Assembly: GCA_965219385.1 (NCBI GenBank) | Contig: CBDCNM010000001.1 | Coordinates: 546,631 to 610,630 of the forward strand | Origin: Candidatus Latescibacterota bacterium | GTDB taxonomy: Bacteria > Latescibacterota > UBA2968 > UBA8231 | Direction: 5' to 3' | DNA: 64,000 bases | Part shown: one piece after another, positions 33,001-48,000 of the stretch | How positions within the stretch are numbered: the stretch's first letter is position 1 | How the letters are laid out: the number at the start of each line of letters is the position of its first letter | Made by a program: the position numbers

Positions 33001-36000
33001 GATCGCTTCAGCATCGAAGAAGCCGAGGCCATGGGGGTGAGCCAGCCCACGGGGCTGCTGTCCATCCACGCCTATGCGCTCAAGTGGAACCTGATGATGG
33101 CTTCGGGAACGAGCGTCCCCCACAAGGCCGAACTCTACGGTCCGGATGGAGCGGGCTTGCTCAAGGTCTTCGTGCCCAAGAGCGGCTTCCAGCACACCGG
33201 CGAGGTTTACTGGATGGCCCGGGAGGACAAGACCGACGGCCTCTACTGGAGTTCGGCCCAGTCGTCTAAGATGCACTCGCCCTTTGATATAGAGCGTGGG
33301 ACCATCACCGAGGGCGAGCCCACCGCGGTCGAGGAAGTGGCTTCCGCTGCCGTGCCTACCACCTACGAGTTGAAGGACAGCTATCCCAACCCCTTCAACC
33401 CGCAGACCACCATCGAGTTCACGGTCCCGGATAAAGGCAAGGTGTTGCCTGTGAGGCTCGCGATCTACAACCCGGCCGGCCAGGAAGTTGCCGTACTGGC
33501 CGACGGGGAACTGGGTGCCGGTTTCTACAAGGCAACCTGGGACGGCCGGGATGCCCAGGGTCAGTTGGTGGCCAGTGGGGTCTATCTCTACCAGCTCACG
33601 GTGGGAGACTTCAGTGCATCCAAGCGGATGACCTTCATGAAGTAGCTACCCTCGCAGTATGAGGTTGCCTGACAGGTGGGTGGCGGGTGGAAGCCAGGCC
33701 ACCCACCTGATTTTTTTATCTCTGCTTTGGTTTTGCCAAAGAGACCGGGGAAATGGCGCACCAATGAACAGAAAAAAATACCTACCAATAGTACTTCTCT
33801 CCCTCCTGATGGCCGGGGGCGAAAGCCAGGGGCAATCGTGGGAAAAGACCACCTGGAGCCAGACCCTCTATTACCGCGGGGTGTACGACGCGGACATCCC
33901 CAGCGACCAGGAGGTCACTCTCTACGTGGCCGCCGTCGACAGCTACGAGGTCTACTTCAATGGAACCCTCGTTGGTGGGGATGATGGGTGGACTCAGATG
34001 ACCGCCTATCCCGTTACCTTGGAGCAGGGGGACAACAACATTGGCGTAAAGGTGACCAACCGCGGGGTGGGCGCCGGTAATGGGGTAATGGCGGCGATCG
34101 TGGGGTCGGTGACGGATTCGCTCGGAGTGGTGAGCGATTTTTCCTATTTCGAGACCACCACGGACCGCAGCCAGGTGGTGTGGGTCTGGACCGACCAGGA
34201 GCAGGAGGACGATGCCTGGACCACGACCGGCGCCCTGAGCGAGGAAGATGGATGGCACTTCGCCCAGACCGGATCCGTGGACGCGACCCAGGTACAGGAA
34301 TTGTACGATCCAGCAATGGAAATCATCGCCGGCTTTCCCGAGGATGTGGATATCGGGAGCGTGGACGGGAGCATCGTGCTAAAGCAGATCCGGGGACAGA
34401 ACCTGGCCCTGAACAGCGTGACCAACCGCCTCAATGCCGTGGATGGGGACCTGAAAACCTCCTGGGATCCGCCGACCAATGCACTCAGCAACACCGCGCC
34501 GCTGGATTTGCAGACCAGGCACAACCTCAACACCGTCCGCATCCTCACCAGAGGCCCGGCCTTCAGGGACAATTCCCTGAGGGGGTACGCGGTGCAGATC
34601 AGCGACGACCAGATCCGCTGGTCGGAGGTGGGTAGCCTGGTCGACATCGGCGAGGTCGATACCACCCAGTTCGTCAAGACCGAGGTGAAATTCCGCTCCA
34701 CCTGGACCCGCTTTTTGCGGATATTCGTCACCCAGATCAATGGGGTGACCGCGCCGAGAGTGAGCGAAATAGAGGTGTTTGGGGAAGGTTTTACCGACCG
34801 GGGTGCCTTTGTCTCGGAGCCGCTCGACCTTGGCTCGCCGAACGCGCCCAAGAATTTTGGCCAAGTGAGCTGGCAGGCGACGGTGCCGACGCGCACTGCG
34901 CTTTCAGTGCAGTTTCGCACCGGGAATGAGGCCGACAACCCCGACGGGTGGGGCCAGTGGAGTCCGCCCTTCCTGGTGGACGCCAACGGCCGGGCATCGA
35001 TTCGGTTCCCCTCGGCCGAGCCGCGCAATTTCTTCCAGTACCGGGTGAACATGGTTTCCGAAGACCCCGACCGAACCCCGACCTTTGACGGTATCCAGCT
35101 TGATTTTTCCGCCAGCGATATCCCGGTGTCGGCGGCGCGGGGCCGGGTCGCGCCCAATCGCGTGCCCATGGGCGTGGATACCGCCTTCGTCTACACCCTG
35201 AGTCTGGATTTTTCCGCCGGGGATTCGGGGGTCGAGAAGATCTGGATCGAGGTGCCCAGCCAGGCGGTCCTCGCCGAGGACCAGATCACCGGGCTGGACG
35301 CCGGGCAAATTCAGGAATGGCGTTCCACCCAGAATGTCCTGGAGCTGGTCCTGGCGGAGCCTTTGACCAATGTCGATGAGTTGACCATTCCTTTTGCGGC
35401 GAGGACCTTTTCCAATGTCCACGAATTCCGTGCCCTTCTCTTTGGGCCGGGTTCCGACAACCCGTTGAACGCGGCGCAGGACACCGAGGTGGACCCGCTG
35501 ACCGCCGAGCCCTACTCGTGGTCCGCCATTGCCACGACCTCCATGGGCAAAACCCTCTCGGAGGTCAGGGCCACCCCGTCGGTGTTCTCGCCGAACGGCG
35601 ATGGGGACAACGATAATACCGTCTTTGAATTCATCCTCTCCAAAGTGGACACCCCGCGGGAGGTGAAAATCCAGATCTTCGATTTGAGCGGCAGGATGGT
35701 TGCCGAACTGAACCCGGATCCGGTGCTTGCGGGCACCTACCTGAGTTCTGGTCAGACCTCGCCCGGGTACTGGGATGGCCGGGGCATGGCCGGCGCCCTG
35801 GTGCCTCCCGGGATCTATCTCTACCGGGTCGAGCTGGATCTGGACGAGGACGACGAGATAGAGAGTGGTATCGTCGGCGTGGTTTACTAAACCTTGCGGC
35901 TGTGCAATCCGGGTAGCGCTTTGAGGAGGGCTACCGGAAACAGCCTTTGCCCAGAATAATCCATTGAAAAACAGGATGAACAAAAAGGTGTTGCTGGGCT

Positions 36001-45000: not shown

Positions 45001-48000
45001 AGCCGTTTTTCGTGCGCATCAACATCCGCAACCCCACCGCGGTGGGCCGGACCAGTCGCATAACCGGTGTGTTCACCCCAACTAGATATCCGGACCAGGA
45101 CACCCGCTTTGCCGATGTGTTCTACCTGATGGATCACCTGCGGGGCGAGGATGTGGGTCGCTCTGTCAATGTAGAGTTGTTGGAGCGCTTTACCGAGGTG
45201 CTGCCGGCGGCTGCGGCCAAGCGGGCGGACGGGGAGCACATGGTGCTGGCTTACTTTGATCTGTCGGAGGAGGCCTACGTGCAGTCGGTGCAGGTGGAGG
45301 CCCTGGTGGGCAATGATTACAAGATGGATGTGAAGGGGATCTACCAGTCCAAGACGCGGGGGAATTACGAAGATTTCTTTGCGGTGGAGACGCTCTCGGG
45401 GGTGCGCAGATCCAAGGGCAATGTGCAGGATCAGGCGAACCTGGATTGGGTGCGTCTGGATTCGGGGGTGTTCACCGGGCGCACGACTCTGGGTTTGAAT
45501 GGCAAGTGGGAAGTACCGGGGGCGCGGGTGCAATGGGAGTATGCCCGCGGCGTGGCGTTCAGGCAGTATCCGGATGGCCAGCCGGAGTTCAGGAGTGTGG
45601 GGGAAACGGATGGGATACGCACCTGGAAAGGCTTGCGCTCGGACCGCTCGGACGAGGCTTACTACCTGACGGCCCAATGGCGTCGCGGCTGGTTGGAGGC
45701 GGGTGGCGAGGTGTTTTCGATCGGACCGGACTACGAAGATCCAATATTGATGGAGGACAACGACGACCACGATCGCTGGCCCGATGGCCTAGCTCGCGCC
45801 ACCGATGTCGGAACCATGCTGGGGGATCCGGGGGCGGATCCGGACGGGATATTCCCGGGCAAGGACCAGGACAACGACGGGGTGCCCGACACCAACCGCA
45901 ACGGCAACGACATCCCCGACTACGACGAGGCGTTTCTGCTCTTCGAGGTGGAGCCGGACGAATACGTGTACGGGCGCGATTGGAACCACAACGGGGTGGT
46001 TGACCACCGGGAAAACGACTTCCGGCTCGACTACCCCTATACTCCGGACCAGCGGGGCTATCACCTGTTCGGGCGCTGGCACCTGCCGGGCGGGCTGGCC
46101 TTGGGCCTGGGACAACAGCGGGCTCGCGGCATTGCCTTTGGAGGGCACAACCACAGCACCTACACCTACCTCACCTTTGAGGCGGAGCGATCTTACTGGG
46201 GCCGGGTGTTCGCCGAGACCCTGATCCAACGGGTCGAGGACGACATCGAGGATACCTACCAGACCTACGAAGAGGTGCTGCGCAGCGCCGAGGCCGCCAA
46301 CCGGGGCTTTGCTCCTCGAGGCGGGGTGTACTACATCAGCAGGGCGGTAAAGGATCCGCTGGACTATCGTGACAGCATGGACTGGCAGTATTACGTGGAG
46401 GGGGAGTGGACCCCGATTCTGGGGGTGCGGCTGGCGGGCAATGCGCGCTACGAACTCAACCGCCAGCGGGAGGTGATTTTTGCCGACGGGACCGGGCAGG
46501 GGGCCGATCGCTTGAAGCTGACCACGAGCGTGCTCAAGGCCGAATACGTGTGGACGCCGGCCACTCGCTGGCAGATAACCGGTCAGTGGAAGGGGTTGTG
46601 GCTGCGTCGGATCCGGGAGAGCGCCTCGGTGCCGCTGGTGGACTTGTGGACCTCGATCCCTTTTTTCAAGGTGCGCTATGATATTACGGCTCGGACCTCG
46701 TTCCAGTTGGGGTTCCAGGGTTTGCCGGGCCTGCCGCTGAAGGAGCGGGATCTGGCCGACCGGCGCAACGACATGGAGGAGGAGGTAAGGGTGATACAGT
46801 TGAGCAACCACTCGCCGTATTTCGGTTATCAGATTTCCATGAACCTGGGGATGCGGGTGTTCCGGCGACGCTTCGACGACCCCGACAGGAGCGCGGATGA
46901 AGAGGATGTTACGTCCGCTTTCATGCGCGTCTTCCTGGGTTGGGATGAATAAGGTGGACGAGCTATGATCACAGCACTGGTTTCTCTGTCCCTGCTCACG
47001 GCGATGATCGTCGCCACCCAGTCCGTGCCCACGGCCGGGGAGCTGCAGGCCTCCTTCAGCCAGGGCCAGAAGTTCTATGCTTCCGGGGCCTACGACCAGG
47101 CAATCGAGAGCTATCAGCACGTCGTCAAGAGCAGCAGCAAATACCTGCAAATGGATTCGGTGCGGGTGGCGGTCGGGGAAATCGATGCGCCTTTGCAGGA
47201 GGTGGCGCCGTATCAGATCGGCAATTCCTACCTCAAAATGGCCGAGGAGGCCCAGGGTAGGGCTGCCAAGACGCGGATTGCCGACCAGCGCGAGGCCTAC
47301 CTGGCCGAGGCGCGTCAGCTTCTCGAGAAGGCCGCTGCTTTTTTTATCAAGGCCGAGGAAGGGGCCTCTTCCACCGCCCTGCAGGCCCTGGCCCGGAGTC
47401 AGGCCGTGGTCTGCTGGTACAAGATGAAGGATTACGAACGCACCATCGAAGGGGCCCGGCTCTTGCTGGAGCGCTATCCGGAGAGCAAGCAGGCCGAGAA
47501 GGCCATGTACGATATTGGCTGGGCCTACTACGACATGGAGGACTATCCCAGCAGCATCGAGGCGTTCAAAGCCCTGGTCGAGCGTTTTGGTACGGGCTAT
47601 CGTTCGAATCGAGCCCTGTTTCAGCTCGGCGAAGCTCATTTCAAATTAGAGCGCTATCCCGAAGCCGTGCCTTATTATCAGCGCCTGGTGGATCAGCAGC
47701 GCATCGGGCAGATGTCGGAGCGGGAAATCCTGCTGATGAAGCGCGAGAAGCTGGCGGGACTGGTGGATGAAACCGCTCTTGAAATCGCGGCAAAGTCCCT
47801 GATCCGGATCGGGGTATGCTACGAGAAAATCGGGGAGTACGACAAGGCGGCGGAGGCCTTTGAGGTGGTGGCCCGCGAGTTTGCCGACGAGCGCCGTCTG
47901 GCCGAGGAGGCCTACCTGCGCGAGGCCGATATGTACTACAACCGCGGCGACTTCGATGCCACCATCGCCGTGTTTTACCGCGCTATCGAAGCCGCTGGGG

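What a model noticed while it worked through the whole genome (the two positions that open the first line are those of the whole stretch)
33809..46952. Twenty paralogues of an undescribed giant outer-membrane beta-barrel, each beside a T9SS type-B cargo gene and a CBM9-li [...]
Eleven loci repeat one cassette: a secreted protein with a CHU_C/FlgD_ig type IX secretion C-terminal domain (often with discoidin lectin domains), one to four copies of a family-less 870-1040 aa protein, and a family-less 290-320 aa protein; folding shows the large one to be a single very large beta-barrel with an inserted run of thrombospondin-type-3-like calcium-binding repeats, and the small one a CBM9-type sugar-binding fold. 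I propose that these barrels are the outer-membrane docks of the T9SS type-B cargo (the role that small PorP/SprF barrels play in Bacteroidota), giving an LPS-free cell a protein anchor for a surface glycan-capture module. New would be a barrel family among the lar [...]
Evidence so far: All-vs-all BLAST families: F15 20 members (g00474, g00508-511, g00643, g01260/61, g01626/27, g03396, g03632/33, g03791, g03796, g04590-92, g04811, g04833), F10 29 members, F9 34 members; all 11 F15 loci hold an F10 gene within three genes and 6 hold an F9 gene within four genes. No Pfam hit at E<=0.01 for g00510, g00476, g04744. HMMER against 1.84 billion representatives: only 431 clusters for g00510, 775 for g04744. 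AF2 with a 62-row alignment: g00510 pLDDT 84, pTM 0.83, about 30 long strands from residue 70 to 926; best solved matches are MtrB 6r2q_B (Foldseek E 1e-10, TMt 0.35; VIA Z 13.4, 417 aligned), SlpA 8ae1, LptD, FhaC Z 13.8, SprA 6h3i Z 11.2, with small porins aligning across mode [...]
(Added by a program. Inside this text positions count along the whole contig: contig position 546,631 is position 1 of the stretch shown here. "Call 12" and the like, gene names such as g00115 and contig names such as C1 are that model's own, and its searches are not shown. The text may have been shortened before it was handed on; [...] marks where a part breaks off. The agent that wrote the report below was given it as the finding of a first reader that could run no searches.)

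Follow-up and report, generated by a model that had tools for sequence, protein, structure and literature searches.

The report
Giant outer-membrane barrel operon, Latescibacterota
Four neighbouring genes encode very large, undescribed outer-membrane-type proteins that sit in a conserved operon with a sugar-binding surface protein and parts of a proton-driven machine, probably for catching and taking up sugars, in an uncultured sponge-associated bacterium.

Summary
The genes are real. Window 35964-46952 holds four paralogues (879-932 aa) of a family with no Pfam, NCBIfam or PDB-sequence match. The genome has 20 copies in 11 loci, each next to a discoidin/CHU_C "cargoB" gene.

- The LPS argument fails. 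The barrels occur in 30 of 36 LpxC-positive genomes of the phylum and are missing from 51 of 115 LpxC-negative ones.
- The window copies are three ancient orthogroups in fixed order, with the third duplicated. The conserved operon is cargoB, three barrels, 1085-aa TPR, DUF4159, TonB_C-like lipoprotein, with ExbB-ExbD-ExbD in orthologous operons.
- In seven LpxC-positive genomes a small PorV/PorQ-like barrel lies between cargoB and the giant barrels.
- Position-3-type singletons elsewhere stand beside glycosidases and sulfatases, not cargo.
- Position-1 and cassette-type barrels do follow cargoB strictly, in 19 of 19 and 69 of 71 loci.

My best reading (0.4) is a motor-linked module for glycan capture and import, in which docking the lectin is one role.

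The scan has reported this module before on other Latescibacterota DNA.

The parts
31732..33645 (+). 637-aa secreted protein with a type-A-like T9SS tail. It is the first gene of the conserved unit.
   Evidence: FlgD_ig 62.9 bits; TIGR04183 30.3 bits (cut-off 23). Orthologues lie upstream of cargoB in L018, L020-L022 and L181. The nearest ESM clusters are T9SS-sorted NHL-repeat proteins at 0.84-0.89, which is a lead only. Contig depth is highest here in RNA libraries X5-X8.
33659..35890 (+). cargoB: a secreted lectin-type protein with a discoidin domain, a conserved ~376-aa C-terminal module and a type-B-like tail. The real start is probably 33764.
   Evidence: F5_F8_type_C 45.9 bits; CHU_C 31.3 bits (cut-off 27); TIGR04131 23.1 bits (cut-off 35). 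14 of 23 family members match TIGR04131 and 3 of 23 match TIGR04183 at E<=0.01. Alignment A3 shows invariant PN.D..D, WDG and PG.Y, and a nearly invariant terminal Y.
35964..38603 (+). bar1: position-1 orthogroup of the giant barrel family (879 aa).
   Evidence: No Pfam or NCBIfam hit. Position-1 forms one clade, support 100. 19 of 21 barrels directly after cargoB-like genes in other genomes are of this type. EF-hand-like loop DMNNNGVVDARE at residue 578. SlpA_C 14.6 bits, below the cut-off.
38605..41340 (+). bar2: position-2 orthogroup (911 aa). It starts 1 nt after the bar1 stop.
   Evidence: Position-2 forms one clade, support 100.
41337..44126 (+). bar3: position-3 orthogroup (929 aa). It overlaps the bar2 stop by 4 nt.
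   Evidence: Position-3 forms one clade, support 99-100. Asp-rich motifs at residues 531, 568 and 606.
44154..46952 (+). bar4: a recent tandem duplicate of bar3 (932 aa, 85% identical).
   Evidence: 84.7% identity over 933 aa. It is sister to bar3 in the tree. Orthologous operons have three barrels, not four.
46965..50222 (+). 1085-aa TPR protein with an N-terminal hydrophobic segment. It directly follows the barrels in orthologous operons.
   Evidence: TPR families and tol_pal_ybgF repeats at 208 bits. The same position is kept in L017, L019, L032, L056, L061, L068, L073-L077 and L175-L180.
50219..51439 (+). 406-aa DUF4159 protein with an N-terminal membrane helix.
   Evidence: PF13709 97.6 bits. 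The helix is read from the sequence. It is conserved in the operon.
51436..52713 (+). 425-aa lipoprotein (lipobox LLAGC) with a conserved N-terminal domain and an AgmX/PglI (TonB_C-like) C-terminal domain.
   Evidence: NF033768 60.6 bits (cut-off 40); TonB_C 18.6 bits. The lipobox is read from the sequence. The N-terminal domain has 6 paralogues, most of them in machine-type loci.

Best explanation
The four genes encode members of a family found almost only in Latescibacterota. The proteins are about 900 aa long, are made with a signal peptide, are predicted to be all-beta, and carry Asp-rich calcium-type motifs. They are most likely very large outer-membrane barrels.

In the window they are not interchangeable copies. 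They represent three old orthogroups kept in fixed order (positions 1, 2 and 3, with position 3 recently duplicated). They form the outer-membrane core of a conserved operon. That operon also encodes two surface proteins delivered by type IX secretion (one of them a discoidin lectin with a type-B-like tail), a 1085-aa periplasmic TPR protein, an inner-membrane-anchored DUF4159 protein and a lipoprotein with a TonB_C-like domain. Orthologous operons add an ExbB-ExbD-ExbD proton motor; here the motor lies 15 kb downstream.

I propose that the unit works by the logic of SusC/SusD. The lectin is exported by the T9SS and held at the surface next to, or on, the barrels. Direct docking is plausible for position-1 and cassette-type barrels in this lineage. 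It captures glycans, and the barrels are the channel through which the captured material enters, gated from the periplasm by the TPR, TonB_C-like and ExbBD parts.

Shown: the gene families, their order, orthology, co-occurrence, distribution, and presence in RNA libraries.
Inferred: barrel fold, membrane location, contact between lectin and barrel, direction of transport, and energy coupling.
For: - Family and copies.
- Three position-specific clades, each with support 99-100; 0 of 500 label shuffles were as clustered.
- The operon is conserved gene for gene in at least 10 other genomes of the own lineage. It is also conserved in families f5, f10 and f13. ExbB and ExbD lie inside it in L060, L068, L076, L087, L175, L176 and L180.
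- In this genome ExbB-ExbD-ExbD lie at window coordinates 68081-69663.
- Genes are tightly packed: gaps of 1-73 nt and three 4-nt overlaps.
- cargoB carries a discoidin lectin domain. It co-occurs with the barrels in 92 of the 97 genomes that have either.
- cargoB lies directly upstream of 19 of 19 position-1-type arrays and 69 of 71 cassette-type barrels.
- Catabolic context: position-3-type singletons lie directly after GH38 (2), sulfatase (2), GHL10, DUF4838, GFO_IDH and MR_MLE genes. The window has three GH42-like genes and a DUF4838 gene, with a sulfatase just beyond it.
- Outer-membrane hints: signal peptides and a terminal hydrophobic strand in 20 of 20 copies. 7 of 10 SurA-like PPIase paralogues lie within 15 genes of a barrel. 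The nearest named ESM cluster is a TonB-dependent-receptor-like barrel family (0.89, a lead only). Weak SlpA_C hits fall at one consistent place.
- Contigs from four metatranscriptome libraries cover the whole operon.
Against:
- The genome already has at least 22 Plug-domain TonB-dependent receptors, so another import route is not required.
- The barrels have no Plug domain and no recognisable TonB box.
- The TonB_C-like protein is a lipoprotein without the N-terminal helix that couples TonB to ExbBD.
- Only about 10 of the 63 upstream neighbours scanned are clearly carbohydrate-related, and about 17 have no family.
- In the window the motor is separated from the operon by a GH42-like gene, a peptidase on the other strand and IS remnants.
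- Cassette-type loci mostly lack TPR and ExbBD genes.
- Depths from RNA-library contigs cannot prove transcription (tool warning).
Confidence: 0.4

Rival explanations
1. Pure dock. The giant barrels are the outer-membrane anchors or shuttles of the type-B-like T9SS cargo. They do the job of PorP/SprF and have no transport role of their own.
For: - The order cargoB then barrel is strict: 19 of 19 and 69 of 71, and 11 of 11 loci in this genome.
- Tails of the B type, not the A type, cluster at barrels: 24 of 29 against 7 of 47.
- The two families co-occur in the phylum.
- No PorP/SprF match in the own genome and none in 63 of 63 genomes of the own family.
- In Bacteroidota, PorP-like proteins bind type-B cargo and their genes lie directly downstream (PMC9143113, abstract; PMC12618676, introduction).
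- SlpA, a 30-strand barrel with metal-held insertions in the pore, is thought to be a scaffold or anchor rather than a pore (PMC9388160, passages).
Against: - In f10 (6 of 6 genomes) and f5 (1 of 1) a PorV/PorQ-like small barrel occupies the position directly after cargoB, ahead of the giant barrels.
- Of 62 position-3-type arrays, 60 lack cargoB upstream and 54 lack any CTD gene there.
- Copy numbers are not one to one. The window has one cargoB for four barrels; C1:741-752 kb has four cargoB genes for one barrel.
- Three conserved barrel orthogroups together with TPR, DUF4159, a TonB_C-like protein and ExbBD are more than an anchor needs.
- The distribution is independent of LPS.
Confidence: 0.25
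2. A machine of the Agl-Glt/Nfs kind. The ExbBD-type motor, the TonB_C-like and TPR proteins and the outer-membrane barrels move or unmask a surface adhesin (cargoB), or spread a surface polymer. They do not import anything.
For: - AgmX/PglI C-terminal domain at 60.6 bits, above the cut-off of 40.
- A giant TPR protein, ExbB-ExbD-ExbD, outer-membrane proteins and a surface adhesin-like protein in one operon.
Against: - The GltG equivalog model scores 33 bits against a cut-off of 650.
- No other Glt or Agl family was detected among the operon proteins scanned.
- The barrels are unrelated in size to GltA/B (recalled).
- The CAZyme and sulfatase neighbours of the singletons are not explained.
Confidence: 0.15
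3. An envelope scaffold like SlpA. The barrels form abundant, possibly trimeric, outer-membrane pillars that stabilise the envelope and carry a lectin coat. The three orthogroups would form a heterotrimer.
For: - Consistent weak SlpA_C matches (11-22 bits) at the same region in 9 of 50 members.
- Asp-rich metal-type motifs in 47 of 59 barrels, as in the in-pore insertions of SlpA.
- Three orthogroups in fixed order.
Against: - All SlpA_C scores are below the cut-off of 35.
- There is no SLH domain and no coiled-coil segment.
- 20 diverged copies per genome and singletons next to catabolic genes fit specialised roles better than a general scaffold.
- The family is absent from 57 of the 151 phylum genomes sampled, including whole families of the same class.
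Confidence: 0.1
4. A dedicated export pore. Each barrel is the translocator of its own neighbouring cargoB, in the manner of two-partner secretion, and the T9SS-like tail is only an Ig-like domain.
For: - Strict pairing and gene order.
Against: - SprA is present in 146 of 151 genomes and PorU/PorV are present here.
- The tail matches T9SS models.
- No POTRA or Omp85 signature in the barrels.
- Singletons stand without cargo.
Confidence: 0.05

Closest known systems
T9SS type-B cargo with a cognate PorP/SprF-like barrel (SprB-SprF, PG1035-PorP; PMC9143113, PMC12618676)
   Same: A secreted protein with a CHU_C/TIGR04131-like tail is encoded directly upstream of an outer-membrane-type protein. The pairs are multiplied per genome. 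A T9SS translocon is present in the genome.
   Different: The partner is 879-1096 aa rather than about 300-400 aa, and it matches neither TIGR03519 nor PF11751. The tail is below the TIGR04131 cut-off. Ratios are not one to one. In some lineages a small PorV/PorQ-like barrel is present as well.
SusC/SusD-type glycan capture and import of Bacteroidota (recalled, not read here)
   Same: A surface glycan-binding protein is encoded beside a large outer-membrane barrel. There are many diverged copies per genome, CAZyme and sulfatase neighbours, and a link to TonB/ExbBD-type parts.
   Different: There is no Plug domain and no TonB_dep_Rec domain. The binding protein carries a T9SS tail and is not a SusD-like lipoprotein. 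The operon-type unit has three different barrels. No import has been shown.
Deinococcus radiodurans SlpA C-terminal barrel (Pfam PF21620; PMC9388160)
   Same: A very large barrel is proposed (30 strands in SlpA). Both have Asp-rich metal-type insertions. There is weak local sequence similarity at one consistent place.
   Different: Scores are 11-22 bits against a cut-off of 35. There is no SLH domain and no coiled coil. The phylum and the gene context differ.
Agl-Glt / Nfs envelope machines of Myxococcus (recalled)
   Same: An AgmX/PglI-type TonB_C-like domain, giant TPR proteins, a TolQR/ExbBD-type motor, outer-membrane proteins and a surface adhesin are encoded together.
   Different: Only the C-terminal domain model is matched. 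The outer-membrane proteins are unrelated. The surface protein is delivered by a T9SS.

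Membership tests
T9SS type-B sorting domain (TIGR04131 / Pfam CHU_C) | C-terminal domain scoring above the curated cut-off of TIGR04131 | tested here: not met
   Window cargoB scores 23.1 bits against a cut-off of 35. 14 of 23 family members match at E<=0.01, best 1e-7.
T9SS type-B sorting domain (TIGR04131 / Pfam CHU_C) | C-terminal domain above the Pfam CHU_C gathering score | tested here: met
   31.3 bits against 27, at residues 640-738 of 743. Most paralogues also match FlgD_ig.
T9SS type-B sorting domain (TIGR04131 / Pfam CHU_C) | The genome encodes the T9SS translocon and attachment parts | tested here: met
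   SprA 633 bits summed. PorU 657 bits, next to a PorV-like gene at 153 bits. GldM was not found, but the control was silent.
T9SS type-B sorting domain (TIGR04131 / Pfam CHU_C) | Secretion depends on the T9SS and on a cognate shuttle | not testable with these tools
   This needs genetics or biochemistry.
PorP/SprF family (TIGR03519 / PF11751) | The sequence matches the family model | tested here: not met
   No hit for any of the 20 own barrels or 30 relatives, even at E<=1. No TIGR03519 match in the genome (control silent).
PorP/SprF family (TIGR03519 / PF11751) | The gene lies directly downstream of a type-B cargo gene | tested here: met
   Position-1-type 19 of 19 and cassette-type 69 of 71. 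It does not hold for position-3-type, 2 of 62.
PorP/SprF family (TIGR03519 / PF11751) | The protein binds the cargo's C-terminal domain | not tested
   Complex prediction never accepted the job (queue full or no answer).
SlpA_C barrel (PF21620) | Score above the gathering cut-off of 35 bits | tested here: not met
   The best score is 21.9 bits. 9 of 50 members have any hit at E<=1, all at protein residues ~376-559 and profile positions 198-313.
SlpA_C barrel (PF21620) | N-terminal SLH domain and coiled-coil stalk | tested here: not met
   No SLH or other N-terminal family was found. The conserved sequence starts right after the signal peptide.
SlpA_C barrel (PF21620) | A barrel of about 30 strands with metal-held insertions in the lumen | tested here: inconclusive
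   Ca-type motifs occur in 47 of 59 barrels, and about 30 amphipathic segments were counted by a crude measure. No structure could be computed.
TonB-dependent transporter | N-terminal Plug domain and TonB_dep_Rec barrel | tested here: not met
   No Plug or TonB_dep_Rec hit in the barrels. None of the 24 Plug matches in the genome falls in a barrel gene.
Agl-Glt / Nfs machine | AgmX/PglI C-terminal domain | tested here: met
   NF033768 scores 60.6 bits against a cut-off of 40 in the 425-aa lipoprotein.
Agl-Glt / Nfs machine | Equivalog-level match to GltG or other Glt proteins | tested here: not met
   gliding_GltG scores 33.4 bits against a cut-off of 650. No other Glt model matched.

The most novel reading that the evidence does not exclude
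Three different giant barrels assemble into one hetero-oligomeric outer-membrane gate. A TPR / TonB_C-like / ExbBD train drives it, and a lectin delivered by the T9SS feeds it. This would be a third kind of energised outer-membrane import machine beside TonB-dependent receptors and SusCD. It would have been invented in Latescibacterota and then multiplied into simpler one-barrel cassettes and singletons that serve individual glycan-degradation loci.
Probability: 0.2. Interest if true: 0.85.

Novelty: new variant of a known kind. Interest (0 to 1): 0.65.

Why it matters
Latescibacterota are widespread, uncultured glycan degraders; this one is a sponge associate. How they take up polymers and how they display surface proteins is unknown. 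The family studied here is among the largest predicted single-chain outer-membrane proteins. It is multiplied up to tens of copies per genome, its locus is held by metatranscriptome libraries, and I found no description of it in print.

If the barrels both hold a T9SS lectin and import what it catches, this links type IX secretion outside Bacteroidota to nutrient uptake by a new outer-membrane architecture. If they are only anchors, they show a second, unrelated solution to tethering type-B cargo.

The comparative results also correct one tempting story: the system is not an adaptation to loss of LPS.

Tried and rejected
1. Structure prediction of the barrel (alignments A1, A2). No model exists, so there was no fold search.

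2. Complex of bar1 (residues 26-879) with the cargoB tail (residues 620-743). The job was never accepted: queue full or no answer. There is no verdict of any kind.

3. PDZ-like insert. Motifs such as VVARFADDSPEDQRGGAVVSEVRLRINGE gave PDB profile hits to PDZ domains at E 1.2 and 0.3. hhalign against PDZ domains of the own genome gave only 7.5% and 2% probability. I rejected it as evidence and keep it as a lead.

4. Complementary distribution of PorP/SprF and giant barrels. PF11751 hits fall in f2 (25 of 30) and none in f1 (0 of 63). The scores are 20-28 bits, and NCBIfam shows that these proteins belong to the PorV/PorQ family. This is not a valid PorP signal, and it amounts to a single lineage.

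5. Fused or longer forms of the barrel: none found (weak evidence).

6. PDB sequence searches with profiles A1 and A2 and with P0043: nothing meaningful.

7. Earlier notes of the scan searched by sequence: nothing.

8. Literature:
   - 'Latescibacter' with 'type IX secretion': 0 papers.
   - 'Latescibacter' with 'T9SS': 0 papers.
   - 'DUF6785': 0 papers.
   - 'DUF4159': only the Pfam paper.
   - PMC12993501 (sponge Latescibacterota) holds none of six envelope terms.

9. RNA. Three bins without cover in run X8, and the low depth over bar3/bar4, are not evidence of silence.

10. The careful IQ-TREE search did not finish. The quick IQ-TREE tree and the FastTree tree are reported instead.

Full report
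WHAT IS THERE

The window is G000:C1:546631-610630 of a 5.81-Mb, two-contig genome that is 94% complete. The record titles of nearly all relatives agree.

On the + strand, with gaps of 1-73 nt and three 4-nt overlaps, lie these genes:
- A 637-aa protein with a type-A-like T9SS tail (31732-33645).
- A 743-aa protein, here called cargoB (33659-35890). It has a discoidin domain and a CHU_C tail.
- Four ORFs of 879, 911, 929 and 932 aa (35964-46952), with no Pfam or NCBIfam match.
- A 1085-aa TPR protein.
- A DUF4159 protein with an N-terminal helix.
- A 425-aa lipoprotein whose C-terminus matches the AgmX/PglI (TonB_C-like) domain.
- A GH42-like 1250-aa gene follows.

Pfam confirms ExbB-ExbD-ExbD at window coordinates 68081-69663, just outside the window.

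THE FAMILY IN THIS GENOME

- Each of the four ORFs finds the same 20 ORFs by BLASTP. They lie in 11 loci.
- A cargoB-family gene is within three genes of the barrels in all 11 loci.
- Of 29 proteins with a B-like C-terminal tail, 24 lie within 10 genes of a barrel, where 1.4 are expected. For 47 A-like tails the figures are 7 and 2.3. The tail models were built from this same genome.
- 7 of 10 SurA-like PPIase paralogues lie within 15 genes of a barrel. Most of the 25 DUF6785/DUF6784 membrane proteins lie within 13 genes of one.
It is not in the window's locus, and only one member gives a weak CBM9_1 hit.

ARE THEY BARRELS?

What the sequence offers:
- All 20 copies start with a signal-peptide-like segment and end in an alternating hydrophobic strand such as ..F.TVYAGLE or ..FMRVFLGW...
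- A crude period-2 hydrophobicity scan of alignment A1 gives about 30 amphipathic segments: 36 raw segments, several of them overlapping.
- 9 of 50 members give sub-threshold hits (11-22 bits, cut-off 35) to the Pfam model of the SlpA 30-strand barrel, always at the same place.
- The nearest named ESM-Atlas cluster is a TonB-dependent-receptor-like barrel family, at 0.89, which is only a lead.
- The best-conserved stretch of the family is an Asp-rich insert at bar3 residues ~530-635. The motif D.[DN].[DN]G.[ILVMPS]D occurs in 47 of 59 distinct members, and a full EF-hand-like loop in 21 of 59.
- In SlpA, insertions held by Asp metal sites fill the pore (PMC9388160, passages).

I therefore accept 'very large outer-membrane barrel with a calcium-type insert' as likely. 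It has not been re-tested here.

DISTRIBUTION

- A profile search over 1.84 billion representatives finds 896 clusters at E<=1e-3. Named hits are all 'hypothetical protein'.
- Two genome scans each return more than 575 related stretches. Almost all are in Latescibacterota MAGs; a few MAGs carry other depositor labels.
- In a sample of 151 genomes of the phylum, the barrel profile matches 94 and the C-terminal 376 aa of cargoB matches 95. Both match in 92, barrel only in 2, cargoB only in 3, neither in 54. Related genomes are not independent, but the pattern is the same in 10 of 14 families and differs by one genome in each of the other four (f2, f4, f8 and f10 in count; f7 in presence).

THE LPS ARGUMENT

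LpxC, LpxB and LptD were not found in this genome, and the controls rang. So the cell may well lack LPS. But LpxC is missing from four whole families: f1-f4, 0 of 114 genomes. Only f1 has the barrels (63 of 63). Families f2-f4 have none (0 of 51). The LpxC-positive families f5-f14 have barrels in 30 of 36 genomes. The published Latescibacter SAGs have LPS genes (PMC4454575, passage), and one of them carries a barrel (L069). The module is therefore older than the loss of LPS and independent of it. SprA is nearly universal (146 of 151), so T9SS presence does not discriminate either.

SUBFAMILIES

A tree of the 20 own copies and 26 operon barrels from nine other genomes puts the position-1, position-2 and position-3 barrels into one clade each.
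- FastTree SH-like support is 100, 100 and 99.
- IQ-TREE quick search under LG+C20+F+G4 PMSF gives SH-aLRT 100 for all three.
- 0 of 500 label shuffles were as clustered.

The window operon and the second own operon (C2:3928 kb) belong to two old operon lineages. Eleven other own copies form a separate 'cassette-type' clade (support 100). bar4 is a recent copy of bar3, at 85% identity.

Three orthogroups kept in one order argue for three non-redundant parts of one assembly.

NEIGHBOURS IN OTHER GENOMES

- In 73 loci seeded with bar3-like sequences, 82 arrays had room upstream. Of these, 21 have cargoB and 6 a type-A-tail gene directly upstream, 48 have something else and 7 have nothing.
- Split by type, position-1-type arrays have cargoB upstream in 19 of 19. 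Position-3-type arrays have 2 cargoB, 6 type-A, 48 other and 6 none, of 62.
- The 'other' genes include GH38 (2), sulfatase (2), GHL10, DUF4838, FG-GAP/ASPIC (2), Metallophos (3), GFO_IDH, MR_MLE, a TPP enzyme and a sigma-54 regulator. About 17 have no family (63 ORFs scanned).
- In 80 loci seeded with cassette-type barrels, 71 had a clearly called barrel. Of these, 69 have cargoB directly upstream. Downstream come SurA-like (18), cargoB (16), the small family (14) or another barrel (11).

THE OPERON

In at least ten genomes of the own lineage the order is cargoB, position 1, position 2, position 3, TPR1085, (DUF5683, 131-aa protein), DUF4159, AgmX-type lipoprotein, (a 342-aa protein), ExbB, ExbD.

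An f13 genome that is LpxC-positive has the window's form, including the upstream type-A cargo (L181).

In six of six f10 genomes examined, and in one f5 genome, a 316-404-aa PorV/PorQ-family barrel lies directly after cargoB and before the giant barrels. For the f5 copy NCBIfam PorV_fam scores 48 bits (cut-off 90); a related small barrel in an f9 genome (G035), which lies after a barrel and an AgmX-type gene rather than after cargoB, scores 85 bits; the f10 copies were recognised by a local model. Two of the six f10 genomes have only one giant barrel.

The own genome has 9 PorV/PorQ-like genes. The closest one sits in a fourth, barrel-less locus with TPR, ExbB, ExbD, DUF4159 and AgmX-type genes.

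So where a small barrel exists, it holds the position that the literature assigns to the cognate shuttle (PMC12618676, introduction). The giant barrels are additional.

EXPRESSION

Four metatranscriptome libraries of one sponge study hold 64-69% of the sampled words of 33659-43600. Their contigs cover all 30 bins of 31500-51400 in three runs and 27 of 30 in the fourth, mostly at 99% identity or more. Contig depth is 50-84 over the 637-aa gene and the start of cargoB, about 10 over the rest of cargoB and the start of bar1, 0.1-7 over bar2-bar4, and 4-8 over the TPR and DUF4159 genes. The tool warns that DNA can be present in RNA libraries and that contig depths cannot rank genes. I take this as presence in RNA libraries and likely transcription, no more.

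READING

The data fit a unit in which a T9SS-delivered lectin works together with giant outer-membrane barrels and a periplasmic, inner-membrane train that ends in an ExbBD motor.

I rank a SusCD-like capture-and-import role first (0.4). It joins five observations:
- the lectin domain;
- the strict lectin-barrel pairing;
- the catabolic neighbours of the singletons;
- the many diverged copies;
- the TonB-type parts.

Docking of cargoB on position-1 and cassette-type barrels is plausible within that model, most of all in the own family, where no small barrel is in the operon. As the sole function of the whole family it is not supported (0.25). A Glt-like surface machine (0.15), an SlpA-like scaffold (0.1) and a private export pore (0.05) remain open.

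NOVELTY

I found no description in print:
- Two searches joining Latescibacter with 'type IX secretion' or 'T9SS' found 0 papers.
- A search joining Latescibacter, 'outer membrane' and 'polysaccharide' found 14 papers. I looked at passages of one of them (PMC4454575), which did not mention the family; the rest I saw only as a search listing.

The scan itself has reported the same module at least eight times in other Latescibacterota genomes. Those notes reached similar comparisons (PorP/SprF, SlpA_C, Agl-Glt). I treated them as leads.

- the LPS-independence test;
- the three orthogroups;
- the neighbour statistics split by subfamily;
- the finding that a PorV/PorQ-like barrel occupies the shuttle position in LpxC-positive lineages.

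Noticed in passing
window 12077-19757: A low-GC island (39-47% GC against about 62%) carries a dynamin-family GTPase (12077-14137), a 1078-aa protein with no family (15555-18791) and a SUKH/SMI1-KNR4 protein (19302-19757). It looks like an acquired defence or conflict island.
   Followed up: no
window 41463-44290: One contig of RNA library X6 joins 41463 to 44290 and skips 2826 nt. That is a form with a single bar3/bar4 gene. It is either a strain without the tandem duplication or an assembly collapse of the 85%-identical copies.
   Followed up: no
whole genome and phylum sample: LpxC is missing from all 114 sampled genomes of families f1-f4, and LpxC, LpxB and LptD are missing here. BamA/Omp85, at least 22 TonB-dependent receptors, SprA and a full-length PorU sortase are kept. 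What PorU attaches type-A cargo to without LPS is an open question.
   Followed up: partly
window 2838-6686, 24174-27848 (-), 52775-56527: There are three paralogous proteins of 1224-1282 aa with weak GH42 and GH42M (trimerisation-domain) matches. A DUF4838/GH67N protein lies at 6725-9274.
   Followed up: no
G000:C2:4172343-4203914 and other places outside the window: The ~310-aa 'small' family has a sub-group of about 20 near-identical copies in tandem arrays. They are interleaved with near-identical 356-aa proteins that have a weak prepilin-peptidase (A24) match.
   Followed up: no
bar3 residues ~246-298 (window ~42072-42230), and the same place in bar1: A PDZ-like sequence motif (..DDSP.D..GGAVV..V.L.INGE..) lies in an insert of the barrels. 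The terminal residues of cargoB are a conserved hydrophobic strand ending in Y. Support for a PDZ fold is weak.
   Followed up: partly
window 27941-28726 and 60645-61718: A DDE transposase gene lies just upstream of the operon region, and an ORF that I read as a transposase-like remnant (not scanned against any family library) lies between the operon and the ExbBD genes. This fits a rearranged locus.
   Followed up: no
G000:C2:3925840-3928031: In the second own operon the cargoB gene is split into two overlapping ORFs of 546 and 202 aa, which suggests a frameshift or a sequencing error.
   Followed up: no
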